Of a DNA stretch of 64,000 nt, positions 2,912 through 53,626 are shown piece by piece (position 1 is the stretch's first letter; each line of letters begins with the position of its first letter). The position numbers and the translations under genes were made by a program. This stretch comes from an uncultured delta proteobacterium (GTDB lineage Bacteria; Desulfobacterota; Binatia; UBA9968), in NCBI GenBank assembly GCA_963728565.1, contig CAVSLC010000010.1, positions 128,001-192,000 of the forward strand, given 5' to 3'. The notes under the pieces are model-generated. The model saw only the letters and a program-made list of their open reading frames with translations, did no database searches and was not told where the DNA came from.

Positions 2912-2926
2912 GCAAGCTCCGTGCCA
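2912..2926 (-). promoter_or_regulatory. sigma54 -24/-12 promoter TGGCACGGAGCTTGC
   Basis: Exact match to TGGCACG-N4-TTGC, about 48 bp upstream of the nucleotidyltransferase start. Confidence 0.8.
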
Positions 2927-2978
2927 CATGCCTTCGGGACAGAACCCCAGTTGTGTTTGGCCGATGCGGCACGACTCG

Positions 2979-3023
2979 TTTCGAACACGGGACACCGGCT
3001 GACCGACTTTCGCGTAAGCGACA
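2979..3023 (-). promoter_or_regulatory. Two enhancer-like sites (TGTCCCGTGTTCGAAA; TGTCGCTTACGCGAAA)
   Basis: TGTC-N8-GAAA sites at 2979-2994 and 3008-3023, upstream of the sigma54 promoter. Confidence 0.5.
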
Positions 3024-3109
3024 CAGGAGAAGCGATGCCTACGAGACATGGCGCATTGCCGGTATAGGCTGGATCGACGAAATTTGCGTCGAGCATCGCG
3101 CTTCTCCCA

Positions 3110-3398
3110 CTACACGACCTCACGGCGTTGAGCACGGTGGGATCTCCGTGCAGATGTCGCGCATGTTTCTTGGTTTCTTCATTAGCGTCACTGATCCGCT
3201 AAGCATCGATACTTTGTTGATCCCTCCACTCTGAATAGCAGATGAATTCTCCCGGCTCATCACTCGACCTGAGCAGTTTTTCCGAGAGATAACCAGGCTG
3301 TTGAATCATCAACGGCGCGCAGTGCTCTTTTCAGATCTGTGCTGCGTTCTTTGCTTCTCGGGCACTACCCTGACGGAAATTAATCTTACGATAGGCAT
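3110..3398 (-). pseudogene. Decayed ABM (antibiotic biosynthesis monooxygenase-like) gene
   Basis: GGAGGAG RBS, then MPIVRLISVRVVPEK, a frameshift, QI*KEHCAPLMIQQPGYLSEKLLRSSDEPGEFICYSEWRDQQSIDA*RISD, a second frameshift, and EVV*. Two in-frame stops plus indels. Confidence 0.7.
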
Positions 3399-3621
3399 GA
3401 TCAACTCCTCCGTGCTGTGTGACTCTAAAAACAACGAGCGCCTACAACTGTATTCGCCGCGCGCGTGCCAGAGCCTCGATGTTCTGCCGTGCCTCCGCAG
3501 CGTTTCGCTCCTCAATATCTCGACCGCCTTCCGTCCCACTGAAATGATTAGATCATGATCATCGTCCCACATCGGAGAAAGGCAAATAATCAAGCCGTGC
3601 AATTCCACCCAGTTGGACAAG

Positions 3622-3636
3622 TGGCATGTGCGTTGC
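3622..3636 (+). promoter_or_regulatory. sigma54 promoter TGGCATGTGCGTTGC
   Basis: GG-N10-GC with TTGC; enhancer-like CGTCCCACATCGGAGA at 3563-3578. Confidence 0.7.
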
Positions 3637-3680
3637 TCATGATTTGAAGCGAGATCAAACTGGCTGTGGAGGATCAAGTA

Positions 3681-4163
3681 ATGAAACAGGCATTCGGAAG
3701 TGGCGATCGGGGGGAATTTTCCGGCAGCACTCGTTTTGAATCCAAGGATGCCGATTTTTCCGACGATATTTTGTCTCAAATCAGTAGTATGCCGCTGGGC
3801 ATTCATGCGGCGACTAATCAGAACCGTCGAATGGAAATCATGGGAGAGTTCATCTTGGTGCAGGCGATCCTTCGTGAAGCCATTCGGACGTATCAGAAGT
3901 ACGCGATAAAAAAAGGTACTCGCGCGACCCGGTTGTTTCGCGACGTGAACGAGTGGTTTTCATCCGATGACCGGCATTGGTTCTTTTCATTCGTCAACGT
4001 TTGCGACACCCTCGGGCTCGAGCCTACTTACATTCGCACCGGGCTCAAGCTATGGCGCGAGCGTAAGCTGCAAACAAATGGTGTGTCTTCGGCTATTCCG
4101 GATTATCAGCCGATTGCCAGGAATTCGCGGCAGCGACTGTTGGCGAATGAACTGAGAAGTTAA
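3681..4163 (+). CDS. Conserved hypothetical protein (LxxAI...WF.SDD..W.FSF.N.C..LGL.P.YIR motif)
   Basis: GGAGG RBS at about 3668, ATG at 3681. The motif is typical of a multicopy deltaproteobacterial hypothetical family (from recall). Confidence 0.7.
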   Translation: MKQAFGSGDRGEFSGSTRFESKDADFSDDILSQISSMPLGIHAATNQNRRMEIMGEFILVQAILREAIRTYQKYAIKKGTRATRLFRDVNEWFSSDDRHWFFSFVNVCDTLGLEPTYIRTGLKLWRERKLQTNGVSSAIPDYQPIARNSRQRLLANELRS

Positions 4164-4229
4164 CGACGGCATTTGCCTTTACCCCGACCCATTAGCTAAA
4201 CGACTGGTCGCCGCCGGGGCGATTTCAGA

Positions 4230-4590
4230 ATGTCAACTACCGAACAAGAGATAGAGCGATTAGTCGAGGAAATCAGCCGCGCGATTCAACGGGGCCCGGC
4301 GGATCAGCGGGCCGAGCTCCGTTCGTATGCTTCATCCCTCGTCAACGATATCGCTACCGGGTCGCCGGTTCCGCCAAGCCAAACTTCAGGTCAAACTGAA
4401 CGCCGTCCATTTGGTTTAGTCGCCGCCGGATTGGCTTTACTAGTGATCGGCGCTGGATTCGCCTTGATGATTACACCCATCGGATTAACCCTTATGGCCC
4501 TTGGGTGTGGTTCTCGCTATCTGGGGTGGAATAGCTGGATGGTGGACGACTCGCGGAGATGTGCGAGCTGGCAATCAGGGAAGCCGATGA
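4230..4590 (+). CDS. Small membrane protein with two C-terminal TM helices; probable frameshift at about 4503
   Basis: Helical N-terminus, then hydrophobic FGLVAAGLALLVIGAGFALM. Removing one G at about 4503 gives ALGVVLAIWGGIAGWW...GSR*. Confidence 0.55.
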
Positions 4591-4637
4591 AGCAATTTCT
4601 CTAATCCTCTTCGAGGGCCGCTAATTGAGTGTCGTCT

Positions 4638-4685
4638 GTGTTGTTTTCAGGACACGGCCGGAGTAGTGTGTCTCAACTGAGACAC
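4638..4685. promoter_or_regulatory. Tandem bEBP enhancer sites, including the palindrome GTGTCTCA-AC-TGAGACAC
   Basis: Palindrome with 8-bp arms at 4668-4685 and a degenerate copy GTGTTGTTTTCAGGACAC 30 bp upstream; both fit TGT-N10-ACA. Confidence 0.65.
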
Positions 4686-4725
4686 GAATCTATTCACGGA
4701 AAAGGAAACCTCGCGGATATACAAC

Positions 4726-4740
4726 GGGCACGCATCTTGC
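4726..4740 (+). promoter_or_regulatory. sigma54 promoter GGGCACGCATCTTGC
   Basis: GGCACG-N4-TTGC upstream of the bEBP gene. Confidence 0.7.
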
Positions 4741-4846
4741 GCAAGCAAATGCGTTGCTAGCGTTTGTTCCTCATGCAGCTTTCCAGCGCTTCGGTTCCGC
4801 GCGTTGTGTGAGCCTGCAAACATAGAAAGAAAGAGTATCCACTGAG

Positions 4847-6199
4847 ATGAGCGCGACGATCTTAGTTTGTGACGACGATTCCGTACCTCGGCGAAATATT
4901 GCCAGCGTATTGGAAGAAGAGGGCTATACCGTTCACCAAGCTGAGGACGGCAAGGCTGCTATCGACGCGATTAACCAGATCGATTTCGATTTGGTCTTAA
5001 CCGATCTGAAGATGCCCGGTGTCGACGGTCTCAGCGTCTTGAAGCACGTGCGGAGTATTTCGCCCCAAACGTTAGTAATTCTTATGACCGCCTTCTCGTC
5101 GGTGGACACGGCGGTAGAAGCCTTTCGTCTTGGAGCGCAAGACTACATCCTGAAGCCGATCGTGATTGAAGATGTGATTAGGAAGGTCGGCCGGTTTCTC
5201 GAGCATAAGAATCTGGTCTGGGAAGTCGAGATGTTGCGCCGTGAGATTAACCGTTCGTCGGAGCCGACCAGTCTGGTAGGGAGCAGCAAGCCGATTCAAG
5301 ATATTTTTAAAATCGTTTCAAAAGTCGCGGCAACCAATTCCACGGTCTTGATCACCGGCGAGAGCGGCGTCGGCAAGGAAGTCGTCGCCCGAACCTTGCA
5401 TTTACAAAGCTTGTCAAAGGACAAAGTATTTTTACCGGTAAATTGCAGCGCGATTCCCGACACTCTGCTCGAAAGCCAGCTCTTTGGTCATGCCAAGGGC
5501 GCATTCACCGGCGCCATCAATGCCCAAGAGGGGCTATTTCAAAAGGCCCAGGGCGGAACCATCTTTCTCGACGAAATCGGCGAGATGCCGTTGACTCTCC
5601 AACCCAAGCTGTTGCGCGCCATCGAAACCAAGGAAGTTTTAGCTGTCGGCTCGACCCAGCCGGTCCGCTTAAACGTGCGAATCATCGCTTCGACCAATCG
5701 CGATCTTGAACGGGAGGCCAGCGAGGGTAAGTTTCGCGAAGATCTTTTTTACCGTTTGAATGTCGTGCATGTCTGGGTGCCGCCGCTGAGAGAACGGCGC
5801 GAAGATATTCCGTTGCTGGTCGATTATCTACTTTCACGTCACAACCGGGAGATGAAGAAGGCATACAAGGGCGCGGACAACTCGGCAATGAAAGTTCTGA
5901 TGTCGCTTCCGTGGAAGGGCAATATCCGCGAATTGGACAACGTGCTCGAGCGCGCGATGATTTTGGGCGACGGCGAATGGATTACGCCGGAGCATTTGCC
6001 TGAATCTGAGATTCCCGAGAACGACCGAAATGTCACGGCAAACAATTTGCGCGTCGCCGTCGAGTCCTATGAGAAAAGCCACATCGCCAATGTTCTAAGG
6101 GACACCGCCGGCGACCGGACTCGGGCAGCGGAGCTCCTCGGATTGAGCCGATCCTCGCTCTACCGAAAGATGGAGAAGCTTAACATCCGTGACGATTAG
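4847..6199 (+). CDS. sigma54-dependent response regulator (NtrC/AtoC-type: REC-AAA+-Fis HTH)
   Basis: REC (VCDDD, TDLKMP), GESGVGKE, intact GAFTGA, FLDEIGE, WKGNIREL, and C-terminal AAELLGLSRSSLYRK. Confidence 0.95.
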   Translation: MSATILVCDDDSVPRRNIASVLEEEGYTVHQAEDGKAAIDAINQIDFDLVLTDLKMPGVDGLSVLKHVRSISPQTLVILMTAFSSVDTAVEAFRLGAQDYILKPIVIEDVIRKVGRFLEHKNLVWEVEMLRREINRSSEPTSLVGSSKPIQDIFKIVSKVAATNSTVLITGESGVGKEVVARTLHLQSLSKDKVFLPVNCSAIPDTLLESQLFGHAKGAFTGAINAQEGLFQKAQGGTIFLDEIGEMPLTLQPKLLRAIETKEVLAVGSTQPVRLNVRIIASTNRDLEREASEGKFREDLFYRLNVVHVWVPPLRERREDIPLLVDYLLSRHNREMKKAYKGADNSAMKVLMSLPWKGNIRELDNVLERAMILGDGEWITPEHLPESEIPENDRNVTANNLRVAVESYEKSHIANVLRDTAGDRTRAAELLGLSRSSLYRKMEKLNIRDD

Positions 6200-40200: not shown

Positions 40201-40214
40201 TATCTCGCCAAGGT

Positions 40215-40961: not shown

Positions 40962-41012
40962 TTGATTTAGGGTAAAGGTCGGATTGCCGTGAAGCAAGGT
41001 CGGATTTGTTAT

Positions 41013-41130
41013 TCTCGCTATTGGGACACGAAGTCGATCCAGCTATGGGTAACCGGCTGTCAATGATGCCGCGCGCATCATCCAACCATCAACTCTCGGG
41101 TGCAGCGAAATCTGCTGGCGCAGGCTTTGC
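41013..41130 (+). promoter_or_regulatory. sigma54 promoter TGGCGCAGGCTTTGC (41116-41130) with enhancer-like site (41013-41028)
   Basis: GG-N10-GC with TTGC; the minus-strand site TGTCCCAATAGCGAGA lies about 88 bp upstream. Confidence 0.55.
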
Positions 41131-41145
41131 TTTTTGACTACGTTG

Positions 41146-42174
41146 ATGCCGCAAAAACCAACTTCCGAAACGGCAACGAGAGATCGTCGTCGGCCAACGC
41201 ATCGTGCAAAATCGCGGACGGCGGGCGCGCCTGACTCCAGCCCGTTGCGCATTCCCAAAGACCGGGACAGCGTCGCAATCGATTGGGAAGGCAAAAATGT
41301 TACGCTAACCAATTTGCGTAAAGTATTTTGGCCTGATCTGGGGATAACCAAAGGCGATCTGCTTCAGTTCTATGCCGATGTCGCGCCGGTATTGTTGCCC
41401 CACCTGGTAAATCGCGCAATGGTTATGAAGCGCTATCCTCATGGCATCGCCGGTGAATTCTTTTTCATGAAACGCGCGCCGTCGCCGCGGCCAGAGTGGA
41501 TCGAGACCTGCGCGATTGAGCACTCGTCCGGGAACGTTATCGATTTTCCGGTGATTCGGGATCTCGCCTCGCTCCTATGGGTTATCAATCTTGGATGCAT
41601 CGATTTAAATCCTTGGTATGCTCGCTGCGATGATGTCGATCGGCCGGATTATTTACATTTCGACCTTGATCCGGTGAAAGGTGCAACCTGGGAGCAGATG
41701 TTGGAGACCGCCTCGGTAGTGCATGACGCCTTGGAGAGTCTTAAGTTACCCTCCCTGATCAAAACTACCGGCTCGAAGGGCTTTCATATCTACGTGCCGA
41801 TCATGCGCGGGCCAACCCAGAAGCAGGTCTGGGCGGTCGCTAAAAAGTTTGCCCTCACCTTGGCAGCTCTGCGTCCAGATTTAATGACCGCCGAATACCG
41901 AATCGCCAAGAGGCCGAACAAGCGAGTTCTGGTTGATTACAATCAAAACGCCTGGGGCCAAACCTTATCCTCGATTTACTCGGTAAGACCGCAGCCTAAA
42001 GCAACCGTTTCGACTCCGATTACCTGGAAGGAGCTGAAGAAGGGACCGGGTATCGAAGACTTCCACATCGGCAATGTTCGCGAGCGGATTCACAAGCTAG
42101 GTGATTTGTGGGCGCCTTTGCTGGCGCAAACCGGACGCGCCAGATTGGAAACCCTGTATGACGCTATCGATTAG
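41146..42174 (+). CDS. ligD: LigD polymerase (primase-polymerase) domain, stand-alone
   Basis: Motifs LTNLRKVFWP, KRYPHG, FFMKRAP, FDLDP, KTTGSKGFHIYVP, VDYNQNAWG.T, YSVR, VSTP. Confidence 0.9.
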   Translation: MPQKPTSETATRDRRRPTHRAKSRTAGAPDSSPLRIPKDRDSVAIDWEGKNVTLTNLRKVFWPDLGITKGDLLQFYADVAPVLLPHLVNRAMVMKRYPHGIAGEFFFMKRAPSPRPEWIETCAIEHSSGNVIDFPVIRDLASLLWVINLGCIDLNPWYARCDDVDRPDYLHFDLDPVKGATWEQMLETASVVHDALESLKLPSLIKTTGSKGFHIYVPIMRGPTQKQVWAVAKKFALTLAALRPDLMTAEYRIAKRPNKRVLVDYNQNAWGQTLSSIYSVRPQPKATVSTPITWKELKKGPGIEDFHIGNVRERIHKLGDLWAPLLAQTGRARLETLYDAID

Positions 42175-42225
42175 CCCGTCGTTTCCGCCCATGGAAGCCT
42201 CGTGCCTGCCCAAGATCCCTCGGCC
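42158..42225 (+). pseudogene. 5' remnant of a LigC-type ATP-dependent DNA ligase
   Basis: The ATG overlaps the ligD end and gives MTLSISPSFPPMEASCLPKIP, resembling LigC N-termini (P.PPM.A....IP). No EPKWDG motif follows. Confidence 0.5.
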
Positions 42226-42299
42226 GCATGTAAAAACGCTGCGCCGTGTCTTGATGAGCGCGCTTCAGCGACGCAGTATGAATTCAGGAGGTTAAAAGC

Positions 42300-42491
42300 A
42301 TGAAATACGAAGTCAAAGAATCAAAGGAGCGATCCGGGGAATTCCTTGCGATTGCGGTCAATGAAGCCAGTCACAACGAAATATTTTCCGCGCTTTTCTG
42401 CGGCCCGGACGCAAAGCAACGAGCCGAGGAGTATGCCGCCTGGAAAAATAGCCAGCTGGAAGTGACCGGCGAACAGCTGTTGCAGCGATAA
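42300..42491 (+). CDS. Small hypothetical protein (63 aa)
   Basis: AGGAGG RBS; motif F.GPDA..RAEEYAAWKN. Confidence 0.65.
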   Translation: MKYEVKESKERSGEFLAIAVNEASHNEIFSALFCGPDAKQRAEEYAAWKNSQLEVTGEQLLQR

Positions 42492-42493
42492 TT

Positions 42494-42988
42494 GTGCGAG
42501 GTCCGTCAAAAGCAAAACAGCCGGCGCCGTCTTCGGATGCGGCGCCGCGCCTTTTTGCCCGCTTTCTCGCTGAGCTTCTCGATCAGCGTTTCACGATTCC
42601 CGGGACCTCGATCCGGATTGGGCTCGATCCGCTTATCGGGCTAATACCCGGCATCGGCGACACCCTCGCCAATCTCGCCGGGTCAGCGATTCTTTTCATC
42701 GGCGCGAAGTTCAATCTGCCGAAAGTAGTCTTATTACGTATGGCTTTGAATATAGCATTGAATACGCTGATCGGCGCTATTCCGTTCGTTGGAGATCTCT
42801 TTTCGATTTGGTTCCGCAGCAACGTCAGAAATGTTCAATTGTTGGAGCGCTACGCAAGCCAGCACCGTCAAAGAGCGGCGGCCGCGGATTGGCTTTTCGT
42901 TGTGGCGGTCATAGGCGGGCTGGTGTTGTTGTTGATCGCTGTGCTTGTCGGACTGGGTTGGTTATTGCAGCAGCTGGTGCGCACTTAG
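42494..42988 (+). CDS. DUF4112-type membrane protein
   Basis: Motifs LLD..FTIPGT..RIGLDPLIGLIPGIGD and GAIPFVGDLF...RSNVRN. Confidence 0.85.
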   Translation: MRGPSKAKQPAPSSDAAPRLFARFLAELLDQRFTIPGTSIRIGLDPLIGLIPGIGDTLANLAGSAILFIGAKFNLPKVVLLRMALNIALNTLIGAIPFVGDLFSIWFRSNVRNVQLLERYASQHRQRAAAADWLFVVAVIGGLVLLLIAVLVGLGWLLQQLVRT

Positions 42989-43034
42989 CTGCGGTGATGA
43001 CGATCTTCTCCTTGCGACCAGGGCACACAACGTA

Positions 43035-43137
43035 TGTCTCGGTTTTGAGAAAGAGTCCCACAGCTGAAACAGCGAAACTCTACGCAGGCTTTGAAGAGCT
43101 TGGTAGCCTCTCGGTTTTCGCGTGGCACACCAGTTGC
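43035..43137 (+). promoter_or_regulatory. sigma54 promoter TGGCACACCAGTTGC (43123-43137) with two enhancer-like sites
   Basis: Near-consensus -24/-12; TGTCTCGGTTTTGAGA (43035) and AGTCCCACAGCTGAAA (43054). Confidence 0.75.
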
Positions 43138-43174
43138 GCAGAGTAGCTGTTGAACGAACTTTACTGGAGGCGCC

Positions 43175-43576
43175 ATGAAATTATTGCTGATTGTTTTCTT
43201 TTCAGGTTTTGTAATGCTCGGATGTTCTAAAGAGCAAGATCGGGCTGATCAAACCGGATCAAAATCTTCGTCATCCGTTGCGGCTGATAATACCGCTAAG
43301 AACGAGCGGGATCGCAACGATGCAACGAAAACCGCGGGAGATCAATCGGAGAATGAAGCCGACCGAAAGATCACGCAGGAAGTACGGAAATCCATTGTCG
43401 ATGACGACAAGCTTTCCACCAACGCCCAGAACGTGAAGATCATCACCAACGACGGCCAGGTCACCTTGCGTGGTCCGGTGAAGACCGCAGAGGAGAAAAA
43501 AGCGATCGAGAGCAAGGCGAAACAAGTAGCCGGGGTGAAGAACGTCGATAATCAGCTTGAGATTGCCAGCAACTAA
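43175..43576 (+). CDS. BON-domain lipoprotein (OsmY-like)
   Basis: Lipobox MLGC; DRKITQEVRK...NVKIIT.DGQVTLRGPV...GVKNVDNQL. Confidence 0.9.
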   Translation: MKLLLIVFFSGFVMLGCSKEQDRADQTGSKSSSSVAADNTAKNERDRNDATKTAGDQSENEADRKITQEVRKSIVDDDKLSTNAQNVKIITNDGQVTLRGPVKTAEEKKAIESKAKQVAGVKNVDNQLEIASN

Positions 43577-43605
43577 TTCTAGTAAGATTTATCTTCAAAG
43601 AACGG

Positions 43606-43638
43606 AGAGGGGCGATGGCACTATCGCCCCTCTTGCGT
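43606..43638 (+). terminator. Probable terminator after the BON gene
   Basis: 11-bp stem AGAGGGGCGAT-GGCACT-ATCGCCCCTCT with a weak T tail. Confidence 0.55.
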
Positions 43639-46877: not shown

Positions 46878-47778
46878 CTATCTTTTTTTCTTCTTCTTGC
46901 TTTTACTTTTAGATGAACTCGAGCTCTTGCTCTTGCGCGACCTTGTCGATGCTTTGGCTGATCGCTTCGGCTGGATATCTTCTTCCTCTTCTGAAGCGTC
47001 AATTTCTGAAACATCGAGCTCTTCCGTCGACCCTGAAGCTTCGTCCATGGTCATGCTTGTCAGCCAATCGCGAACTTTCTCCAGGTGCTCTTGTTCCTCT
47101 TCGTACGCTTTGCGGCACTGTTCTTCGAGATCGTCTTGACCCAGCTCCGCGGCGATGTCTTGGAGCATCTGCCAGCCATCGTTATCGACGAGCTCTGCCG
47201 TGAGCATCGCCTGCAGCGTTTGCGGAATGGTGGTCCGAGGATCACTGACCACCTGCATGACACCATGACTCAATACCCCGGCGACATCCGCCGAAGGCGT
47301 CTGCACGGTGGCATCCCCGCCCAAAGCGGTGATGGCATTTTGCAGCAGGTGAAAATGCTCCAGTTCTTCGTCGCAGATGTGGCGCAGTTCTTCGGCAGAA
47401 GGCCCCGAGGCGTTTTCCAGATTAAGCGACTCGCATTTCTGTAGGAACGCCTCGTAAAGCCGAGTGCCTTGCCTTTCAAAGGCCAGCCGCTCGCCTAACT
47501 TGTCGAGCAAAACCGGCTAATCCATCGAATTGTCCGACACTCTCACCGTCTTCAGAAACTTCCACCATAACCGGTGATGAGCCGATCGGCACGGCCTCCT
47601 CTATATACTCGGCCTTAACCGCTGCCATCTCCGTGGCACCGCCTTGTGAGCTTGGCACGGTTTGTTTGGCTCCCTCGATCATTTCGATACTGAGTTCTGG
47701 ATTGGTCATGATTCCCGTGCGATTACCGGGAATTTCCTGTTTCGAATCTGACAGAACGTCCATTTCATGCGTTTCCAT
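46878..47778 (-). CDS. Ferritin-like domain protein with acidic then Ser/Lys-rich C-terminal tail; probable frameshift at about 47515
   Basis: AGGAG RBS; ORF 47476-47778 joins ORF 46878-47510 at LA-VLLDKLGERLAFER. Motifs DEELEH, AELVDNDGW, EEQEH. Confidence 0.8.
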
Positions 47779-47798
47779 ACGATGGTCTCCTGGTTTAT

Positions 47799-48998
47799 TT
47801 ACGCAACTTTAGTTTGCAGCTTCTTGATATCGGGAGTTTCTTCCGCCAACTCGGTGCCGGGCTTCCACTGGTAGCCGGCGGCGACGGTTTCGGACGGCGA
47901 GCCTTTTGAATTCATCTGCTCGCGGTAAACCACCGACGGCGAATCGGCTCCTTCATCATCTTTGTCGATGAACTGGGTCTTGCGCGCGCGTAAATCGACT
48001 TCCTCGCTCAATGTCTTGCGCACGAATTCGCGATGGCTTCGGTATTCGATGGGCTCCGGCAGCGATTCCGGGATAATCTCGGCTGGGTCACGCTTTTCGA
48101 ATTTCTTGAACAAGTCGAGAACATAATGGAAGTGCCCTAGCTCGTAGTCGAGGAAGCGTTGCCAGATTGCCTTCACTTTCGGATGGCTCTCGTACTGCAG
48201 GCAGCTGTAGTAATTATAAATTTCGCCGGCTTCGTGCATCAACCATTTCTCCAGCCAGGTCTCCTCCGGGTCGATGATCGATTCGTATTGGGTGACATGT
48301 TGTTCTTCGATAGAAGCGATTTCGGCATAGAGCTGCCGGGCTATGGGGTCGGCGAACATAGGTCCGATGGTCATGTAATAGTCATGCGTTTGATGTTCGC
48401 CGGCCATAATCGTTACCGCGTTGAGCTTGCTGATCGGCGCCGCCTTCTTGCGGTCGTAAGCTTCGCGTAGATCGTCTTCCGGCGCGCGGTGTTCCACGGC
48501 AGTGGGGCGTCCCGGCAGGATGTCGGTATAACTCTGAAGAATATTATTGGCGTCACAACCGATAACTCGATCCATCAAGGCGGAGAAGCGATACATATGA
48601 TCGAAATCTTCGAGCAGCCCGAAGCGGTAAACCTGGGCCAGGTAGGGGTCTGGTTCGTGTTCCGCTACGCTCGCGGTCACTTCAATAGCGACCTGCTCAA
48701 AGCCGATGGTTGTTTCGAGCGGCGAAAGATCGGCGGGTAACAGCCAGTTGACCATGGTTTGTTGATGTTGTTCGATGCGCCGCACCCGCGCCAAGGCAAG
48801 CTGCAATTCTTTATTCATGCGCGCGCAGGCGTGTTGGAACCGCAGCGCCTCGGACTCGATGCCGTTCATCAGGATAATCCGCACCCGAGTAAAAGCGTCG
48901 CTGTCTAGCTTGCTCGTCGGCACCCCCGCGATATCGCGCCAATTAAATTTTTGTTCATCCAAGCCAACTCCTTTTTCCTTCATCAAGTCTAAACTCAT
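47799..48998 (-). CDS. Tandem ferritin-like (di-metal carboxylate) protein
   Basis: AAGGAG RBS; repeated E...ExxH ligand sets (NGIE, LLEDFDH, AGEHQ, IEEQH, HEAGE, YELGH). Confidence 0.8.
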   Translation of the reverse strand: MSLDLMKEKGVGLDEQKFNWRDIAGVPTSKLDSDAFTRVRIILMNGIESEALRFQHACARMNKELQLALARVRRIEQHQQTMVNWLLPADLSPLETTIGFEQVAIEVTASVAEHEPDPYLAQVYRFGLLEDFDHMYRFSALMDRVIGCDANNILQSYTDILPGRPTAVEHRAPEDDLREAYDRKKAAPISKLNAVTIMAGEHQTHDYYMTIGPMFADPIARQLYAEIASIEEQHVTQYESIIDPEETWLEKWLMHEAGEIYNYYSCLQYESHPKVKAIWQRFLDYELGHFHYVLDLFKKFEKRDPAEIIPESLPEPIEYRSHREFVRKTLSEEVDLRARKTQFIDKDDEGADSPSVVYREQMNSKGSPSETVAAGYQWKPGTELAEETPDIKKLQTKVA

Positions 48999-49114
48999 AA
49001 GGTCTCCTTTCGTCTGGAACAGTTGCAGTGATTGGTCAGCCGCTCTAACGCGCTGTAACAGAACTTCAAGTTGTGCAGAAATTTCGAAGCAGAAGGTGTC
49101 GCGCAGCAATTAGT

Positions 49115-49174
49115 GCAAGTGAGGTGCCAGTAAAAAACGTCTTGCTTCGATACCTGAGTCTCCGGCTTGCGACA
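49115..49174 (-). promoter_or_regulatory. sigma54 promoter TGGCACCTCACTTGC (49115-49129) with enhancer-like TGTCGCAAGCCGGAGA (49159-49174)
   Basis: Near-consensus -24/-12 upstream of the ferritin-like pair. Confidence 0.75.
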
Positions 49175-49292
49175 TTTCTCTCAGAACTGTTCCGTAGTTG
49201 ATTGATATTCTGCGCCGTTTCCGCGTAGCACCTTGTGGTTCGAGCGAAGATAGGTCAGATTTTAAGAGATATTCTCAAAGCAATGGTTTTGC

Positions 49293-50231
49293 ATGATCCC
49301 ATCAAACGCGCCGGTTATAGAGATTCACTCCGTTTCCAAACAGTTCGGCGATCGTATGGCGGTCGACAATCTCGACCTGGAAGTACCGGCTCGGACTTGT
49401 TTCGGTTTGCTCGGGCCCAATGGCGCCGGGAAAACCACCACATTGCGGATGATCTACGGCGTCACCCAGCCTTCCAGCGGTACTATCCTGGTTTTCGGCA
49501 TGGATATCGGCCCGAATTCCCGAGCTGTGCGCGCCCGCCTTGGGGTTACATTGCAGCAAAACGTCTTGATCGAGGCGCTGTCGCCCAAAGAGAACCTTCG
49601 GGTATTCGGCCGCTATCATTTGTTACATGAGCCGGAGCTGTCGCGCCGGGCCGAGGAATTGATCGACTTTCTCGAGCTGCGTTCCCACGCCGACGTCCCG
49701 GTGAAACGTCTGTCCGGCGGTTTTCAGCGCCGCCTGGCGATCGCTTTGTCTCTGATCAACGGCCCGGAACTGCTGATTCTCGATGAACCGACGACCGGCC
49801 TCGATCCGGCAGTTCGCCTCGCTTTATGGTCACGTATCCGTGAGTTGCGCGCATCCGGAACCACGGTGCTGGTCACGACTCATTATATGGACGAGGCGCA
49901 GCGTTTATGTGACCGGGTGGCCATCGTTTCTGCCGGAAAAGTCATTCGTTCCGGCGCGCCGGCAGAGCTCATCGTGGGACTGGCAGCGGAAACGATCGAG
50001 CTGGATTGTTCGATTGAAGAAGAAGCGGCGCTGTTAAATGGCTTTGCCGCCGACGCGCAGTGCCTGCGAATTGGCCAGCGGCTGATGATTTACCTGGAAA
50101 ACACCACCGGCCTGATTGACCACATACGTCGTAGCGATCACGGTGATCGCCGGCCGATCATCGTTCGACCGACAAATTTGGAAGACGTTTATTTGTCACT
50201 CACCGGTACTCGGCTCGAGGGCGGCTCATGA
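49293..50231 (+). CDS. ABC-2 exporter ATP-binding subunit (NodI-like)
   Basis: Motifs GPNGAGKTT, LSGG, ILDEPTTGLDP, TTHYMDEA. Confidence 0.92.
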   Translation: MIPSNAPVIEIHSVSKQFGDRMAVDNLDLEVPARTCFGLLGPNGAGKTTTLRMIYGVTQPSSGTILVFGMDIGPNSRAVRARLGVTLQQNVLIEALSPKENLRVFGRYHLLHEPELSRRAEELIDFLELRSHADVPVKRLSGGFQRRLAIALSLINGPELLILDEPTTGLDPAVRLALWSRIRELRASGTTVLVTTHYMDEAQRLCDRVAIVSAGKVIRSGAPAELIVGLAAETIELDCSIEEEAALLNGFAADAQCLRIGQRLMIYLENTTGLIDHIRRSDHGDRRPIIVRPTNLEDVYLSLTGTRLEGGS

Positions 50232-51016: not shown

Positions 51017-51307
51017 TTAATGGGCGGTGCGGCGAGCACGTTGCAACCGTGCTCCAATCAGGCGAGCCGCTCCTACCACAGTGATGGCGCCAAGAACCGC
51101 GGTTGCATAGGAGCCGAAAGAATTGCTCCCGATGATGACCCAGAAAAACAATGAGTGCCCAAGCAGCGCGCCGATCACACCAAAAATAACATCGCGCAGA
51201 TGGTTGTTGCCTGGGCTGGCGCCTCTGCCGTCCCGTTCTCCGTCAGCGGCTATTCCGGTCAACCAACCGGCAATCGCACCCAACAAGATTCGCGCGAGAA
51301 GATTCAT
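51017..51307 (-). CDS. GlsB/YeaQ/YmgE (transglycosylase-associated) stress membrane protein
   Basis: Motifs ILLGAIAGWL, GVIGALLG, AVLGAI. Confidence 0.8.
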   Translation of the reverse strand: MNLLARILLGAIAGWLTGIAADGERDGRGASPGNNHLRDVIFGVIGALLGHSLFFWVIIGSNSFGSYATAVLGAITVVGAARLIGARLQRARRTAH

Positions 51308-51418
51308 AGGGGCCTTCCTTGCTGATGTGCAGCGAACCGGAATGTTTCGTGTCCGGCAGGCGAGCTCAAGCGAAGCGGAGAAAGCGGGCAAGAAAATGGC
51401 GCTGGTTTGCTCGAGGGC

Positions 51419-51928
51419 TCACGCCGGTCTTCCAGCGCGAAGCGCCTCGCTAACCTGTTCTTCCACCGCGCTTTTGCTCTCGCCAGTCACTTCCGAAATC
51501 TCGCACACCAATAGCTTTCGAGCTCGAGCCAAGATTTCCCGCTCAAAGGGCGATAGCGATTTAGTTCCGGCCAAGCTGGTCAACGATTCGATGATCACCG
51601 CCAGATCGAATGCCGACCCCGAGCTTAAAAGTTTTGTGTTATCCGTATTGCGTTGGCGCCAGTTTTTGGCGACGTCGGCTTCCTTCGTTCCGGATATTTT
51701 CTTGAGGCGGCGCAGCAGTTGGGGGATCTCACACTTATCGAGCAATGCGCGCAGATGCAAATTGGCGAGGTTCTCTACCGGCACGAACAACTCGCCTTTA
51801 CTATCATCCAGTAGTGCCAGAGGATAGAATTTCATGGTTTGCCCGCCGACCACCTTTTTAACGACTTCGCCGATTAGACAGGGGCCGCGGCTCGGGTAAA
51901 CGACTTTAGCTCCAACCGTTAACATCAT
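51419..51928 (-). CDS. CarD/CdnL family transcription factor
   Basis: Motifs VGAKVVYPSRG, FVPVEN...LRALL, NWRQR (Trp retained), ARKLLVCEIS. Confidence 0.85.
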   Translation of the reverse strand: MMLTVGAKVVYPSRGPCLIGEVVKKVVGGQTMKFYPLALLDDSKGELFVPVENLANLHLRALLDKCEIPQLLRRLKKISGTKEADVAKNWRQRNTDNTKLLSSGSAFDLAVIIESLTSLAGTKSLSPFEREILARARKLLVCEISEVTGESKSAVEEQVSEALRAGRPA

Positions 51929-52336
51929 TGAAATCTCCATTCTGCTGGAACTTAACCGAGGCATAATCCAGCGAGACCACAGTTCTCAGGCGAAAATTGC
52001 TAGCTCAACGAGACCGGCGATATTATCAAGGCGTGTCGCTGTTGGCTGCAACGGAAGTCAACACAGAAGTTTTCATCCGGATGGCAGTACCATCTGATCC
52101 TACCACCCCTGGGTCGGATAAGATACAGACTGATTGAACGTCTGGCGGGTAAAGACTACCGATGTAGCCGAAGAGATACCCGAATGGAGATTACGACGAG
52201 TGATGAGGCAGAAAACTCTTCATCTATAAATATCACGGGTGCGAGCGACATGGATACCCGACCGGGCAAAGGCGCTCCCCAAGAGCCGGGTACGGCCCGC
52301 CGGGAGCACCTTAGAACAAACTAAGAATCTGCAGTG

Positions 52337-52564
52337 TTAGTAAATGATCGAGCCCTTCTCAATCTGTTTTTTACGGTCTTCATATTCTTCACGAGATATT
52401 CGCCTATTCCTGTAATCCTCCTCCAACTGCTGCATCTGCCGGTAAGCCTGATACTCGTAACCGCCTCCAGCAGCCCCGGCGCCTACCAATGTTCCCGCGA
52501 GAAACTCGCATCCCGATTGCGTGAGACCTGTTATGAGCAGCCCTACTACAATAAGTTTTTTCAT
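52337..52564 (-). CDS. Small lipoprotein (glycine-zipper-like + SHOCT-like tail)
   Basis: AGGAGG RBS, lipobox QSGC, GAGAAGGG, ISREEYEDRK. Confidence 0.7.
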   Translation of the reverse strand: MKKLIVVGLLITGLTQSGCEFLAGTLVGAGAAGGGYEYQAYRQMQQLEEDYRNRRISREEYEDRKKQIEKGSIIY

Positions 52565-52662
52565 CGGAACCTCCTAGTTTTAAACTTACAATATTGCTCC
52601 AAGCTATCGCGAATTCCTTTAATCCGCCGCAGTAATCTCATGGTAAGCTTATTATCCATGGC

Positions 52663-53232
52663 CTAATTGCTCGCTACCGGAGCGCTTATTTTCTTTTGCT
52701 TCATCGCCTGAACCAATTCCTCGAAAGAGGATTTGGACAGCACTCGATTGAATTGCGAGCGGTAGTTATTAACCAGGCTGATGTTTTCTATGATAACGTC
52801 GGTAACCTTCCACTCGCCGTTCACATCGATAAGCCGGTAATCGAGCGCGAAGTTTTCACCCTTTCTGTTGATTAGCTTTGTGTTGACTTCAGCAAAATCG
52901 TTTTCCTGCCGCTCGTTGACGAACTGAATTTTCTCGCCGCTGTACTCTTCCAGTTTGCTCAAGTAGGTGCCTTCGAGCAGATCCGTGAACAGCCGGACGA
53001 ACTCCTGTTGCTCTGCCGCGCTGCGCTTTTGCCACTGCGCGCCCAATGAGCGCTTCGCCATCTCCTCGAAAGCGAATCTTTCATGGACGGCTTCCTTGAG
53101 CTTCTGCCGCCGGCTCGCACTCTTGGCGTCCCCTTTTAACGATGGGTCAGCCAAAATAGTCTGGATTTTTTCTACCGATTGTTTTAACTGATCGCTTGCC
53201 GCACCGGCCAAAGCTGGGCTGGGGAGCGACAA
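52663..53232 (-). CDS. MlaC/Ttg2D periplasmic phospholipid-binding protein (signal peptide probably frameshifted at about 53233)
   Basis: Motifs F.FEEMAKRSLG..W, FVRLF..LL..TY, LDYRL, WKVTDVIIENISLVNNYRSQF. Confidence 0.88.
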   Translation of the reverse strand: MSLPSPALAGAASDQLKQSVEKIQTILADPSLKGDAKSASRRQKLKEAVHERFAFEEMAKRSLGAQWQKRSAAEQQEFVRLFTDLLEGTYLSKLEEYSGEKIQFVNERQENDFAEVNTKLINRKGENFALDYRLIDVNGEWKVTDVIIENISLVNNYRSQFNRVLSKSSFEELVQAMKQKKISAPVASN

Positions 53233-53273
53233 GTAGAAGTGTACCGAGCGCCACAGCCGGCCATTTCTGACGT

Positions 53274-53456
53274 CTAACGGCCGCGGTCGACAAATCTGTT
53301 TTTCAAGCGAACGCGAGAACTGAGAAACAGATCCTGCAGAATGTATGAGACGAGCAGGTTCACTCGACGCTTGTTGCCGGACAGCGGCTTAACTTCCTCG
53401 GTCACTGCAGCCACGAGATCCCCTAATGTGCTATCTGTATTCGCTTGCCCGCGCAT
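53274..53456 (-). CDS. Small hypothetical protein (60 aa)
   Basis: AAGGAGG RBS; TLGDLVAAVTEEV helix; sits directly behind a sigma54 promoter. Confidence 0.65.
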   Translation of the reverse strand: MRGQANTDSTLGDLVAAVTEEVKPLSGNKRRVNLLVSYILQDLFLSSRVRLKNRFVDRGR

Positions 53457-53533
53457 ATGATGCCTCCTTTTTTCCGCTCACCAGTCTATCAGAGTTCCGG
53501 GATAGGCGGTGAATGAAGCCAGGGTTTCAACGA

Positions 53534-53626
53534 GCAACGCATATGCCATACTGCGGAAGGGCGGCGCTATCTCCTTAGATATACAGGAAGTTTTCCATTT
53601 GAAGGGAGAATCTCAAGAAAACAACA
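53534..53626 (-). promoter_or_regulatory. sigma54 promoter TGGCATATGCGTTGC (53534-53548) with enhancer-like TGTTGTTTTCTTGAGA (53611-53626)
   Basis: Differs by one base from the promoter at 3622; the enhancer resembles the site at 4639. Confidence 0.7.

What the first reader, a model, noticed from the sequence alone, without database searches (positions are those of the whole stretch)
2912..53626. Dispersed sigma54 regulon with a shared enhancer motif that appears to run a general-stress/NHEJ programme
Seen: sigma54 -24/-12 boxes at 2912(-), 3622(+), 4726(+), 41116(+), 43123(+), 49115(-) and 53534(-), plus a decayed one at 3456(-). Each of the seven has one or two 16-bp sites of the form TGTY-N8-GAVA (C or A at the first base in two sites) about 30-90 bp upstream, at 2979, 3008, 3563, 4639, 4669, 41013, 43035, 43054, 49159 and 53611. 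The best site is a palindrome, TGTCTCAACTGAGACA, in front of the bEBP gene itself. Established: Fis-HTH bEBPs bind such dyads (NifA UAS is TGT-N10-ACA), and BON/OsmY, ferritin-like proteins and LigD are usually RpoS, SigB or EcfG general-stress targets. Inference: here an autoregulated sigma54 activator (4847-6199, or a paralogue) replaces the usual stress sigma. It would control LigD, BON, the ferritin pair, MlaC, a sugar nucleotidyltransferase and several unknown small proteins.
Basis: partly seen in the sequence, partly recalled or inferred. Interest (0 to 1): 0.8.

Follow-up and report, generated by a model that had tools for sequence, protein, structure and literature searches.

The report
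Sigma-54 stress-gene regulon in Binatia
An uncultured soil bacterium appears to switch on a scattered set of stress-protection and DNA-repair genes through sigma-54 promoters and one self-regulating activator protein that recognises a shared 18-base palindrome, a job that better-studied bacteria usually give to a dedicated stress sigma factor.

Summary
All seven -24/-12 boxes and all ten upstream sites are at the stated coordinates.

The site is better read as an 18-bp imperfect palindrome, TGTCYC-N6-GRGACA. Four results put it above chance:
- A matrix built only from the window's sites finds 11 of 110 outside-window hits lying 10-150 bp upstream of sigma-54 boxes, against about 1.2 expected.
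- Its half-site is among the most enriched 6-mers upstream of the genome's sigma-54 boxes.
- Boxes and sites are kept in diverged intergenic DNA of related genomes.
- Box-plus-site pairs are concentrated in genomes that carry the orthologue of the window's activator, 4847-6199.

The regulon has about 16-20 promoters, seven of them here. Members elsewhere include PRC-barrel-RecQ, YflT-like, ferritin-like, PLD and DksA-like genes.

Ku, PolX, Hsp20, OtsAB and the TreS-GlgE genes have no box. "LigD" is only the polymerase domain. Three extra RpoD-like sigma genes exist. No transcription start or binding was shown.

Earlier notes of this scan describe similar sigma-54-wired stress islands in other soil bacteria.

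The parts
1818..2864 (-). Sugar-1-phosphate nucleotidyltransferase gene (the GTG at 2864 is the likely start). First gene behind the 2912(-) promoter.
   Evidence: Pfam NTP_transferase, E 6.6e-23. Weak match to mannose-1-phosphate guanylyltransferase models, below cut-off. Start read from the sequence.
2912..2926 (-). Sigma-54 -24/-12 box TGGCACGGAGCTTGC.
   Evidence: Exact match. PWM 15.2. Kept in 6 of 6 same-genus genomes aligned.
2977..3023 (-). Two enhancer sites 29 bp apart: TGTCCCGTGTTCGAAACG (2977-2994) and TGTCGCTTACGCGAAAGT (3006-3023).
   Evidence: Both are kept, with changes in the spacer, in 6 of 6 aligned genomes.
3125..3398 (-). Remnant of an ABM-like gene, frameshifted in this assembly.
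   Evidence: An intact 96-aa ORF is present in G005, G007 and G002. It is frameshifted in G000 and G004. The relatives' box TGGCAY-N5-TTGT falls in a gap of the G000 sequence.
3563..3580 (+). Enhancer site CGTCCCACATCGGAGAAA, between the divergent promoters.
   Evidence: Kept in 6 of 6 aligned genomes.
3622..3636 (+). Sigma-54 box TGGCATGTGCGTTGC.
   Evidence: PWM 21.7. Kept in 6 of 6.
3681..4604 (+). Two genes of unknown function. One is 160 aa (ATG at 3681, ends 4163). The other is a 124-aa protein with a hydrophobic stretch (4230-4604).
   Evidence: No Pfam or NCBIfam hit. The first is found next to the activator gene in 6 same-genus loci and, more weakly, in G026 and G032.
4639..4686 (+). 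Two enhancer sites 30 bp apart: TGTTGTTTTCAGGACACG (4639-4656) and the palindrome TGTGTCTCAACTGAGACACG (4667-4686, core 4669-4684).
   Evidence: In orthologous loci the half-sites are kept while the spacer varies.
4726..4740 (+). Sigma-54 box GGGCACGCATCTTGC, in front of the activator gene.
   Evidence: One mismatch. PWM 14.2. A box at 112-147 nt before the ATG in the 9 A-type loci L021-L029, with scores of 11.2-21.5.
4847..6199 (+). NtrC-type response-regulator activator ('A-type'): receiver domain, AAA+ sigma-54 interaction domain and Fis-type HTH.
   Evidence: Pfam Response_reg, Sigma54_activat and HTH_8. GAFTGA, Walker A and Walker B motifs read. The HTH reads ..LSRSSLYRK.., which sets it apart from the 61%-identical paralogue on C23.
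41011..41028 (-). Enhancer site TGTCCCAATAGCGAGAAT.
   Evidence: Kept in G005, G006 and G003.
41116..41130 (+). Sigma-54 box TGGCGCAGGCTTTGC.
   Evidence: PWM 17.5. Kept in G005, G006 and G003. Boxes also stand before the orthologues in G028 and G010.
41134..42988 (+). LigD primase-polymerase-domain gene (ORF 41134-42174, true start uncertain), a 63-aa ORF (42300-42491) and a DUF4112 gene (42494-42988).
   Evidence: Pfam LigD_Prim-Pol, E 1.5e-84, and DUF4112. NCBIfam ligD_pol domain model scores over its cut-off, and no ligase domain is present.
43035..43071 (+). Two enhancer sites 19 bp apart: TGTCTCGGTTTTGAGAAA (43035-43052) and AGTCCCACAGCTGAAACA (43054-43071).
   Evidence: Both sites and their spacing are kept in G005, G002 and G003.
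43123..43137 (+). Sigma-54 box TGGCACACCAGTTGC.
   Evidence: Exact match. PWM 18.9. Kept in G005, G002 and G003.
43175..43633 (+). BON-domain gene (43175-43576) followed by an 11-pair hairpin (43606-43633).
   Evidence: Pfam BON, E 5.1e-15. Hairpin.
46878..48998 (-). Operon behind the 49115(-) promoter: a 399-aa probable ferritin-like protein (47799-48998), a 100-aa unknown (47476-47778) and a ferritin-like protein (46878-47510).
   Evidence: Orthologue alignments begin at residues 30-38 of the long ORF. Protein-atlas leads are 'DUF455' and 'ferritin-like', scores 0.97-0.98. Pfam Ferritin for the last gene.
49115..49129 (-). Sigma-54 box TGGCACCTCACTTGC.
   Evidence: Exact match. PWM 20.3. Boxes of 13.6 or more stand before 5 of 6 orthologues in other genomes.
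49157..49174 (-). Enhancer site TGTCGCAAGCCGGAGACT.
   Evidence: A site at the same 30-bp gap stands before both G007 copies.
52663..53456 (-). Conserved 60-aa ORF (53274-53456) and the MlaC gene (52663-53232), behind the 53534(-) promoter.
   Evidence: Pfam MlaC, E 2.1e-47. The small ORF shows coding-like conservation in 6 genomes.
53534..53548 (-). Sigma-54 box TGGCATATGCGTTGC.
   Evidence: PWM 19.9. Kept in 6 of 6 aligned genomes.
53609..53626 (-). Enhancer site TGTTGTTTTCTTGAGATT.
   Evidence: Poorly conserved: weak in G006, replaced by an opposite-strand TGTCCY-N6-GAAGGG site in G007 and G002, and not seen in G005 or G003.

Best explanation
The window holds seven of roughly 16-20 sigma-54-dependent promoters that form one regulon.

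Each promoter has a -24/-12 box (TGGCAY-N5-TTGC). About 30-115 bp upstream it has one or two copies of an 18-bp imperfect palindrome, TGTCYC-N6-GRGACA. Paired copies lie 19-20 or 29-30 bp apart.

The most likely binder is the NtrC-type response regulator encoded at 4847-6199. On this reading it binds the palindromes as dimers when its receiver domain is phosphorylated by a kinase that is not encoded next to it. It then assembles into an AAA+ ring, contacts sigma-54 holoenzyme through its GAFTGA loop and opens the promoters, including its own (positive autoregulation).

The products are mostly protective or repair proteins:
- BON, PRC-barrel with RecQ, YflT-like, three ferritin-like proteins
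- the LigD polymerase domain
- MlaC, PLD, a sugar nucleotidyltransferase and small unknown proteins

So the regulon most likely serves survival under non-growing, dry or oxidising conditions in soil.

Shown here: the sequence elements, their statistical association, their conservation and their co-occurrence with the activator's orthologue. Inferred: binding, activation, the signal and the physiological role.
For: 1. The elements are present as described.

2. Independent association. A matrix built from the ten window sites finds 110 sites scoring 13 or more outside the window. Eleven of them lie 10-150 bp upstream of a sigma-54 box scoring 12 or more. The expectation is about 1.2, because 1.06% of the genome lies in such positions. 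Only 1 site in the whole genome lies at the same distance downstream of a box.

3. Positional control. Among 165 intergenic boxes, an 18-bp-matrix hit of 13 or more occurs in 20 at -20..-150, in 2 at -200..-330 and in 1 at +20..+150. This matrix was partly trained on those same promoters.

4. Unbiased 6-mer count upstream of the 165 boxes. GTCCCA occurs 20 times against 5.7 expected, and TGTCCC 19 against 6.2. With the window's promoters excluded, TGTCCC still occurs 18 against 6.0.

5. Footprints. In same-genus genomes whose intergenic DNA is only 68-94% identical, boxes and half-sites are kept while spacers and flanks change.

6. Autoregulation. A palindrome-like 18-mer (two of them weak by the G000-trained matrix) stands upstream of the A-type orthologues in G001, G002, G004-G007, G010, G027, G028, G032, G044 and G052 (and G026, unpublished). 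A promoter-positioned box accompanies it in 10 of the 14 A-type loci examined (L021-L029, L230), is not located relative to the ATG in G044, and is absent or misplaced in G010, G027 and G032.

7. Phyletic link. The combined pattern has 53 matches in 31 family genomes, against 2 for the backwards control. The nine genomes with an A-type HTH hold 41 of the 53 matches (34 in eight without G026). Fifteen genomes checked and found without an A-type gene hold 9. Seven were not checked and hold 3.

8. Orthologues in other genera. PRC-barrel, YflT-like, LigD-pol and the 399-aa protein mostly keep sigma-54 boxes: 3 of 4, 3 of 5 at a score of 12 or more, 2 of 3, and 5 of 6.

9. The activator has the receiver, AAA+ and HTH_8 domains and the GAFTGA motif.
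Against: - rpoN was not found in this assembly. The assembly is 80.6% complete, and rpoN is present in 20 of 20 relatives searched (which includes unpublished G012).
- No kinase gene lies beside the activator.
- G003, a same-genus genome, keeps boxes and sites before LigD-pol and BON, but no A-type gene was found in it. Its best hit is 60% identical and B-type.
- The 53611 site is poorly conserved.
- The G000-trained matrix scores many sites in other genera weakly.
- A 61%-identical paralogue recognises, by inference, a very similar palindrome, TTTCKC-N6-GMGAAA. Many G000 sites end in GAGAAA, so cross-talk or misassignment is possible.
- The loose pattern also catches enhancers of other activators.
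- Related genomes are not independent samples.
- No transcription start, binding or expression result exists. The RNA-library contigs laid cannot show starts or levels.
Confidence: 0.72

Rival explanations
1. Strong version of the first reader's idea. This activator is the master general-stress regulator of the lineage. It takes the place of RpoS, SigB or EcfG and runs NHEJ as part of the programme.
For: - The gene set overlaps hallmark general-stress proteins: BON, PRC-barrel, YflT-like, a weak YjbJ/CsbD-like protein, ferritin-like proteins and LigD-pol.
- No RpoS or SigB/F/G model passes its cut-off in this genome.
- A split RpoD-like sigma gene on C5 lies behind a good site and a weak box, which would allow a cascade.
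Against: - Ku, PolX, Hsp20, OtsAB and TreS-Mak-GlgE-GlgB in the same window have no box scoring 9 or more upstream.
- The 'LigD' gene has no ligase domain.
- Four RpoD-like sigma genes exist that could act as stress sigmas.
- The regulon is small, about 16-20 promoters.
- The assembly is 80.6% complete, so the absence of other regulators cannot be claimed.
Confidence: 0.25
2. The promoters and the shared palindrome are real, but the palindrome is bound by a different protein. Candidates are the 61%-identical B-type paralogue (C23:202896-204233), both paralogues, or an unrelated regulator.
For: - The B-type genes carry a palindrome of the same architecture (TTTCKC-N6-GMGAAA) near their own start codons in more than ten genomes.
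- Many window sites have B-like right halves, GAGAAA.
- TTCGCA/TGCGAA is also enriched upstream of sigma-54 boxes.
- G003 keeps the sites, but no A-type gene was found in it.
Against: - The TGTC-type palindrome stands in front of A-type genes and the TTTC-type in front of B-type genes, consistently across genera.
- Genomes with only a B-type gene have few or no box-plus-TGTY-site pairs. G011, G021, G022, G023 and G029 have 0, and G025 and G030 have 1 each.
- The two paralogue groups differ in the HTH recognition helix: SRSSLYRK against SLSTLYRK.
Confidence: 0.1
3. The co-occurrence is a chance product of a loose, post-hoc motif. It reflects the general tendency of enhancer sites to begin TGT and end ACA.
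For: - Across the family the loose combined pattern also lies before cytochromes, HtrA, histidine kinases and others, with TGTCAC..GTGACA-type sites.
- Boxes at up to 2 mismatches are not enriched in the window.
Against: - The test outside the window.
- The positional controls.
- The unbiased 6-mer enrichment of the specific half-site.
- Site-by-site conservation in diverged intergenic DNA.
- The phyletic link to one orthologue group.
Confidence: 0.03

Closest known systems
NtrC-type response-regulator activators with tandem palindromic enhancers, such as enteric NtrC at glnAp2 (recalled) and Myxococcus xanthus NmpR (PMC11841059: abstract and passages read)
   Same: - Receiver, AAA+ and Fis-type HTH architecture, with GAFTGA.
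- One or two dyad sites upstream of a -24/-12 promoter.
- The activator's own operon is a target.
- For NmpR, a soil bacterium uses such a regulator for a survival-type regulon (oxygen limitation, with universal stress proteins).
   Different: - The site is TGTCYC-N6-GRGACA, not GCGCA-N5-TGCGC (NmpR).
- No adjacent kinase or phosphorelay genes.
- No nitrogen-assimilation or oxygen-utilisation genes among the targets.
- NCBIfam equivalog models for NtrC, AtoC, ZraR and others all score below their cut-offs.
NifA upstream activator sequence, TGT-N10-ACA
   Same: A dyad with outer TGT and ACA triplets, placed upstream of sigma-54 promoters.
   Different: - The full dyad here is 18 bp (TGT-N12-ACA), not 16 bp, with specific inner bases (TGTCYC / GRGACA).
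- The protein has a receiver domain, not a GAF domain.
- The NifA model scores below its cut-off.
General stress regulons run by alternative sigma-70-family factors: SigB in Bacillus, RpoS in gamma-proteobacteria, EcfG/PhyR in alpha-proteobacteria (recalled)
   Same: Gene content: BON/OsmY-like, PRC-barrel, YflT, CsbD/YjbJ-like, ferritin/Dps-like and NHEJ components.
   Different: - Control here is by sigma-54 plus an ATP-dependent activator, not by sigma-factor replacement.
- The regulon is smaller.
- Ku, Hsp20 and the trehalose genes nearby are outside it.
PspF/psp and RtcR/rtcBA: sigma-54 stress or repair regulons (recalled)
   Same: Sigma-54 activators dedicated to damage responses.
   Different: - Those activators lack a receiver domain or use other sensor domains.
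- They control one or two operons.
- Their NCBIfam models score below cut-off here.
Earlier notes of this scan on sigma-54-wired stress islands in Acidobacteria and another uncultured soil bacterium (e1-4161480, e1-3397071, e1-4801526; unchecked AI notes)
   Same: Clusters of stress-survival genes behind sigma-54 promoters with a conserved enhancer and an embedded activator, in soil bacteria.
   Different: Different phyla, different sites and partly different genes (chaperones, hypoxia and NO genes). I did not check these notes.

Membership tests
Sigma-54-dependent (-24/-12) promoter | GG and GC elements in the TGGCAC-N5-TTGC arrangement | tested here: met
   Seven boxes with 0-1 mismatch and PWM scores of 14.2-21.7.
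Sigma-54-dependent (-24/-12) promoter | Placed upstream of a gene and oriented towards it | tested here: met
   All seven point at a gene start. Six are within about 110 nt of it. The 53534(-) box is 77 nt from a conserved 60-aa ORF.
Sigma-54-dependent (-24/-12) promoter | The organism encodes sigma-54 (rpoN) | tested here: inconclusive
   PF04552 and PF04963 were not found in G000, which is 80.6% complete. They were found in 20 of 20 relatives searched, including 7 of the same genus (which includes unpublished G012). The genome has 18 or more activator genes.
Sigma-54-dependent (-24/-12) promoter | Transcription start about 10-12 nt downstream of the -12 GC | not testable with these tools
   Only assembled RNA-library contigs were available, and these cannot show starts.
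Bacterial enhancer-binding protein, NtrC-type response regulator | AAA+ sigma-54 interaction domain with a GAFTGA loop and Walker motifs | tested here: met
   PF00158, E 3.5e-67. GAFTGA, GESGVGKE and FLDEIGE read.
Bacterial enhancer-binding protein, NtrC-type response regulator | N-terminal receiver domain and C-terminal Fis-type HTH | tested here: met
   PF00072, E 1.7e-29, and PF02954, E 4.4e-13. An acidic pocket and the Asp of 'LTDLKMPG' were read; assigning that Asp as the phospho-acceptor is recalled, not tested.
Bacterial enhancer-binding protein, NtrC-type response regulator | Cognate histidine kinase encoded alongside | tested here: not met
   The neighbours are two unknown small proteins and glgE. 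By contrast, the B-type paralogue follows a kinase gene. This feature is common in the family but not obligatory.
Named equivalogs NtrC, AtoC, ZraR, NtrX, GlrR, NifA, PspF, RtcR | Score over the NCBIfam curated cut-off | tested here: not met
   The best is AtoC at 448.8 bits against a cut-off of 714. NtrC scores 409.9 against 558.6. All listed models are below cut-off.
NmpR regulon (M. xanthus) | Binding consensus GCGCA-N5-TGCGC | tested here: not met
   The site here is TGTCYC-N6-GRGACA. The NmpR consensus comes from passages of PMC11841059.
General stress regulon (SigB, RpoS or EcfG kind) | Hallmark protective proteins co-regulated | tested here: inconclusive
   BON, PRC-barrel, YflT-like, ferritin-like and a weak YjbJ-like protein lie behind box-plus-site promoters. 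Hsp20, the trehalose genes and Ku do not. Co-regulation is predicted, not measured.
General stress regulon (SigB, RpoS or EcfG kind) | Controlled by an alternative sigma-70-family factor | tested here: not met
   The promoters are -24/-12 type with an enhancer.
General stress regulon (SigB, RpoS or EcfG kind) | Induced by several unrelated stresses | not testable with these tools
   No expression data under defined conditions are available.
Bacterial NHEJ module (Ku plus LigD) | Ku and a ligase-bearing LigD under common control | tested here: not met
   No box of 9 or more lies before Ku at 38525. The gene at 41134-42174 has only the primase-polymerase domain.

The most novel reading that the evidence does not exclude
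In Binatia, and perhaps in other soil phyla that lack RpoS, SigB or EcfG, the core 'survive without growth' response runs through sigma-54. A phosphorylation-gated, ATP-consuming activator switches on a tightly off-by-default set of protective and DNA-repair genes and amplifies itself. It may also feed into a group-2 sigma factor. A recent duplication has produced two activators whose palindromes differ at a single base pair per half-site (TGTC against TTTC) and whose recognition helices differ at two residues (SRSS against SLST). That would be a natural example of how enhancer specificity is re-wired.
Probability: 0.3. Interest if true: 0.7.

Novelty: new variant of a known kind. Interest (0 to 1): 0.55.

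Why it matters
How bacteria outside the few model phyla coordinate stress survival is largely unknown. Binatia have no cultured member.

This work yields three usable things:
- a defined DNA site
- a named regulator gene
- a list of about 16-20 target promoters

Together they make the question testable in a heterologous host. They also give a marker set for reading soil metatranscriptomes, for example in drying and rewetting series.

Sigma-54 promoters are silent without their activator. A stress programme built on them would therefore behave differently from sigma-competition systems. The pair of paralogous activators with near-identical palindromes is also a compact system for studying enhancer specificity.

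Earlier notes of this scan suggest that similar wiring recurs in other soil bacteria, which would make it a general theme rather than a curiosity.

Tried and rejected
1. The box search at up to 2 mismatches gave no enrichment and is not informative.

2. The search for related loci in genome contigs returned no close relatives. The best hit was 61% identical, in a record titled a Binatia MAG (B-type by its HTH). It served only as a taxon hint.

3. The loose combined pattern across the family gave 53 matches against 2 for the control. The downstream genes of the 28 loci examined are mixed, and only 5 are homologous to G000 regulon genes (fer399, p94, p60, PLD, DksA-like). The loose pattern is therefore not specific to this regulon.

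4. RNA-library contigs from four soil metatranscriptome runs are 92-99% alike to the window. They lie on LigD-pol, DUF4112, BON, PolX and the ferritin-like operon.
- The highest word depths (about 100-300) are on 47082-49048 in 4 of 4 runs.
- One 1,519-nt contig ends at 49087 and is followed by adapter letters.
- One BON contig begins at 43169 after adapter letters.
- Bins 42867-43147 and 49049-49300 have little or no cover.
By the tool's own rules, contigs cannot show starts, strand or level, and missing cover proves nothing. I use none of this as evidence.

5. The 'decayed' box at 3456(-) is not conserved and was set aside as a functional element.

6. Pfam and NCBIfam found nothing for the small unknown proteins at 3666-4163, 4230-4604, 42300-42491, 43848-44426, 46208-46843, 47476-47778 and 53274-53456.

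7. A PDB sequence search with the 399-aa protein found only hits at E of 0.27 or worse, to aldehyde decarbonylases.

8. The terminator scan found nothing beyond chance overall (15 against 11.4), apart from one strong hairpin after BON.

9. Literature searches found no paper on a sigma-54 general-stress or NHEJ regulon, or on sigma factors of Binatota, in the held library (listings). Subscription journals are not covered.

10. Searches failed on a coordinate slip and a too-short search term. They were corrected.

Full report
**What is in the window.** The window is G000:C10:128001-192000, from a 4.53-Mb, 28-contig assembly that is 80.6% complete with 5.8% contamination. Earlier notes of this scan place the genome in the class Binatia. 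The best outside hit to the activator is a record titled a Binatia MAG. I did not test the taxon further.

Pfam annotation shows a stretch rich in survival genes:
- an RpoD-like sigma gene
- a sugar nucleotidyltransferase
- an NtrC-type activator
- GlgE-TreS-Mak-GlgB
- Hsp20
- carotenoid genes
- Ku
- a LigD primase-polymerase-domain gene
- DUF4112, BON and PolX
- ferritin-like proteins
- MlaC
- an OtsA-OtsB fusion
- MsrB

**Check of the observation.** TGGCAC-N5-TTGC with at most 1 mismatch occurs 9 times. Shuffles give a mean of 4.48, and 4 of 100 reach 9. Three matches are exact. At up to 2 mismatches there is no enrichment.

I built a sigma-54 matrix from 94 intergenic, gene-oriented boxes of the genome. 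All ten upstream 16-mers are at the stated coordinates and strands.

**A better description of the site.** Reading the sites with their flanks, and beside orthologous sites, gives an 18-bp imperfect palindrome, TGTCYC-N6-GRGACA. The left half is the stronger one in this genome.

The palindrome before the activator gene reads TGTGTC-TCAACT-GAGACA in this register. This removes an apparent 2-bp spacing difference from relatives, which have, for example, TGTCTC-AGTAAA-GAGACA. Paired sites lie 19-20 bp apart (BON, and C6:13345/13365) or 29-30 bp apart (2977/3006 and 4639/4669).

**Is it more than chance?** The motif was defined from the window, so I looked outside it.

1. The strict pattern lies in -10..-160 of 14 of 95 candidate promoters genome-wide. 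That is 20 hits against 2.95 expected at intergenic density.
2. A matrix from the ten window sites finds 110 sites of 13 or more outside the window. Eleven lie 10-150 bp upstream of a box of 12 or more, against about 1.2 expected. At a threshold of 12 the figure is 18 of 242. Only 1 site (threshold 13) or 3 sites (threshold 12) in the whole genome lie at that distance downstream of a box.
3. For 165 intergenic boxes, an 18-bp-matrix hit of 13 or more is found in 20 at -20..-150, 2 at -200..-330 and 1 at +20..+150. This matrix is partly trained on those promoters.
4. An unbiased 6-mer count over the same 165 upstream regions ranks GTCCCA (20 against 5.7) and TGTCCC (19 against 6.2) among the top four words. 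Without the window's promoters, TGTCCC is still 18 against 6.0.

My gene calls are crude (81% coding). 'Intergenic' is therefore approximate.

**Conservation.** Same-genus genomes differ by 6-32% in DNA over these regions. The boxes and half-sites are nevertheless kept.

| Promoter | Genomes in which it is kept |
|---|---|
| LigD-pol | G005, G006, G003 |
| BON (both sites and their spacing) | G005, G002, G003 |
| 2912(-) and 3622(+) | 6 of 6 aligned |
| 53534(-), box | 6 of 6 aligned |
| 53534(-), site | weak or relocated in 3, unseen in 2 |

The 399-aa protein was found in only 5 of the 30 other family genomes searched. Boxes of 13.6 or more stand before 5 of its 6 copies outside G000, and both G007 copies have a site at the same 30-bp gap.

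In other genera:
- PRC-barrel orthologues have boxes of 16 or more in 3 of 4.
- YflT-like orthologues have boxes of 12 or more in 3 of 5.
- LigD-pol orthologues have boxes of 16 or more in 2 of 3.

Recognisable sites accompany some of these.

**Which regulator?** The activator at 4847-6199 has receiver, AAA+ (GAFTGA) and Fis-type HTH domains. It falls below the cut-off of every named NCBIfam equivalog.

Its gene carries the best palindrome, a second site and a box. A palindrome-like 18-mer, weak in two of the loci by the G000-trained matrix, recurs before its orthologues in G001, G002, G004-G007, G028, G032, G010, G027, G052 and G044. It recurs too in G026, which is unpublished; that item rests on G026 and is dispensable. 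A promoter-positioned box accompanies the site in 10 of the 14 A-type loci examined (L021-L029 and L230). In G044 a box is present but I did not place it relative to the ATG. In G010 and G027 no box was found (scores -2.6 and 1.1), and in G032 the best box lies upstream of the site.

These orthologues share the recognition helix ..LSRSSLYRK.. ('A-type'). A 61%-identical paralogue group, which includes G000 C23:202896-204233, has ..LSLSTLYRK.. ('B-type').

A loose combined pattern (site, 28-118 nt, box) has 53 matches in 31 family genomes, against 2 for the pattern read backwards. The matches are distributed as follows:
- Nine genomes with an A-type gene hold 41 matches. Without G026, eight genomes hold 34.
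- Fifteen genomes in which I looked and found none hold 9. G024's locus is truncated, so its type is unknown. Unpublished G012, with 0 matches, is among the fifteen.
- Seven genomes were not checked and hold 3.

Kin are not independent, so this is a pattern, not a statistical test. The loose pattern also catches other activators' enhancers.

One counter-example stands. G003 keeps sites and boxes, but no A-type gene was found in its 410-contig assembly.

**Extent and content of the regulon.** Combining box and site scores gives about 16-20 promoters. Outside the window the first genes are:

| Location | First gene(s) |
|---|---|
| C10:51195(-) | PRC-barrel protein, overlapping a RecQ-type helicase gene |
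| C5:148086(-) | YflT-domain protein |
| C6:13445(+) | 87-aa protein, weak match to NF007748 (28.8 bits, far below cut-off; I recall this model as YjbJ, a CsbD-family protein) |
| C13:385055(+) | PaaA/PaaC-type ferritin-like protein |
| C13:384612(-) | unknown 158-aa protein |
| C9:100371(-) / 100550(+) | cytochrome c and alcohol dehydrogenase, divergent |
| C10:46546(+) | 94-aa unknown, then a PLD-type protein |
| C23:64299(-) | DksA/TraR-type zinc-finger protein |
| C3:62329(-) | SnoaL-like protein |
| C5:116946(-), weak box | 57-aa ORF and a split RpoD-like sigma gene |

Of 28 loci from other genomes hit by the loose pattern, five have downstream genes homologous to G000 members.

**What the interpretation gets wrong.** No box of 9 or more precedes Ku, PolX, Hsp20, OtsAB or GlgE. 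A strong hairpin follows BON, so PolX is probably not co-transcribed with it. The 'LigD' gene is the polymerase domain alone.

No RpoS or SigB/F/G model passes its cut-off, but four RpoD-like genes exist. 'Replaces the stress sigma' is therefore not established.

rpoN is missing from this incomplete assembly. It is present in 20 of 20 relatives.

**Comparison with what is known.** The mechanism is the ordinary NtrC-type one.

The nearest studied analogue I could read is M. xanthus NmpR (PMC11841059; abstract and passages). NmpR is an autoregulated NtrC-like regulator with tandem dyads before sigma-54 promoters, and it controls an oxygen-limitation regulon. Its site (GCGCA-N5-TGCGC), its kinases and its targets all differ.

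The gene content resembles SigB, RpoS or EcfG regulons (recalled), but the control logic differs.

Four searches of the held library found no paper on a sigma-54 general-stress or NHEJ regulon, or on sigma factors in Binatota (listings).

Earlier notes of this scan describe comparable sigma-54-wired stress islands in Acidobacteria and another uncultured bacterium (unchecked). This scan has therefore seen this kind of wiring before, on other DNA.

**Verdict.** The regulon is real with high probability. Assignment to the A-type activator is well supported but indirect. The physiological label 'stress survival' is a reasonable inference. 'General-stress master regulator running NHEJ' goes beyond the evidence.

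Noticed in passing
G000 C23:202300-204400 (L178), with L034-L040, L061 and L179-L182: The 61%-identical B-type paralogue follows a histidine-kinase gene. It has a sigma-54-like box TGGCTT-N5-TTGC about 125 nt before its ATG. It also has a conserved palindrome, TTTCKC-N6-GMGAAA, only about 25-30 nt before the ATG, which is downstream of the box. The architecture is the same as the A-type site but with T for G at position 2. This may be a site of negative autoregulation. TTCGCA/TGCGAA is also among the most enriched 6-mers upstream of sigma-54 boxes.
   Followed up: partly
window 3125-3470 (-): A 96-aa ABM-like gene is intact in G005, G007 and G002 but frameshifted in G000 and G004. Its sigma-54 box is missing in G000, where the alignment shows a gap of about 27 nt.
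   Followed up: yes
window 8541-10764; G000 C5:144500-146100; C5:115317-116589: Several genes are split into adjacent or overlapping ORFs: TreS in two pieces, an aldehyde:ferredoxin oxidoreductase in three, and an RpoD-like sigma gene in two. This suggests indel errors in the assembly rather than real pseudogenes.
   Followed up: no
window 53630-53645: A 14-nt element, GAAGGnTTTTTCAG, is conserved in 6 of 6 same-genus genomes. It lies between the 53534(-) promoter and otsAB. Its function is unknown.
   Followed up: no
window 2-1261 and G000 C10:127472-127638: The RpoD-like sigma gene at the window's start (ORF from C10:127667) has a sigma-54 box, TGGCATATTTGTTGC, 28 nt upstream, and a divergent second box at C10:127472(-). 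Neither has an A-type site. A sigma-70-family gene may therefore be under another sigma-54 activator.
   Followed up: no
G000 C5:115000-117200 (L189): A good A-type site (TGTCTCAGTTATGAGAAT) and a weak box (TGGCATCGAATTCGC, score 11.3) precede a 57-aa ORF and the split RpoD-like sigma gene. This is a possible sigma-54 to sigma-70 cascade.
   Followed up: partly
G000 contigs C10:24000-128000 and C23:197000-282000: These stretches hold dense runs of TGGCAT-type sigma-54 boxes in intergenic DNA without the A-type site. Other regulons of the 18 or more activators appear to be clustered on the chromosome too.
   Followed up: no
G027:C49, G028:C537, G010:C660, G052:C147: In other genera, regulon genes are also neighbours. 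PRC-barrel and the 399-aa protein share a contig in G027. LigD-pol and PRC-barrel share one in G028. Pattern hits lie on the same contigs.
   Followed up: partly
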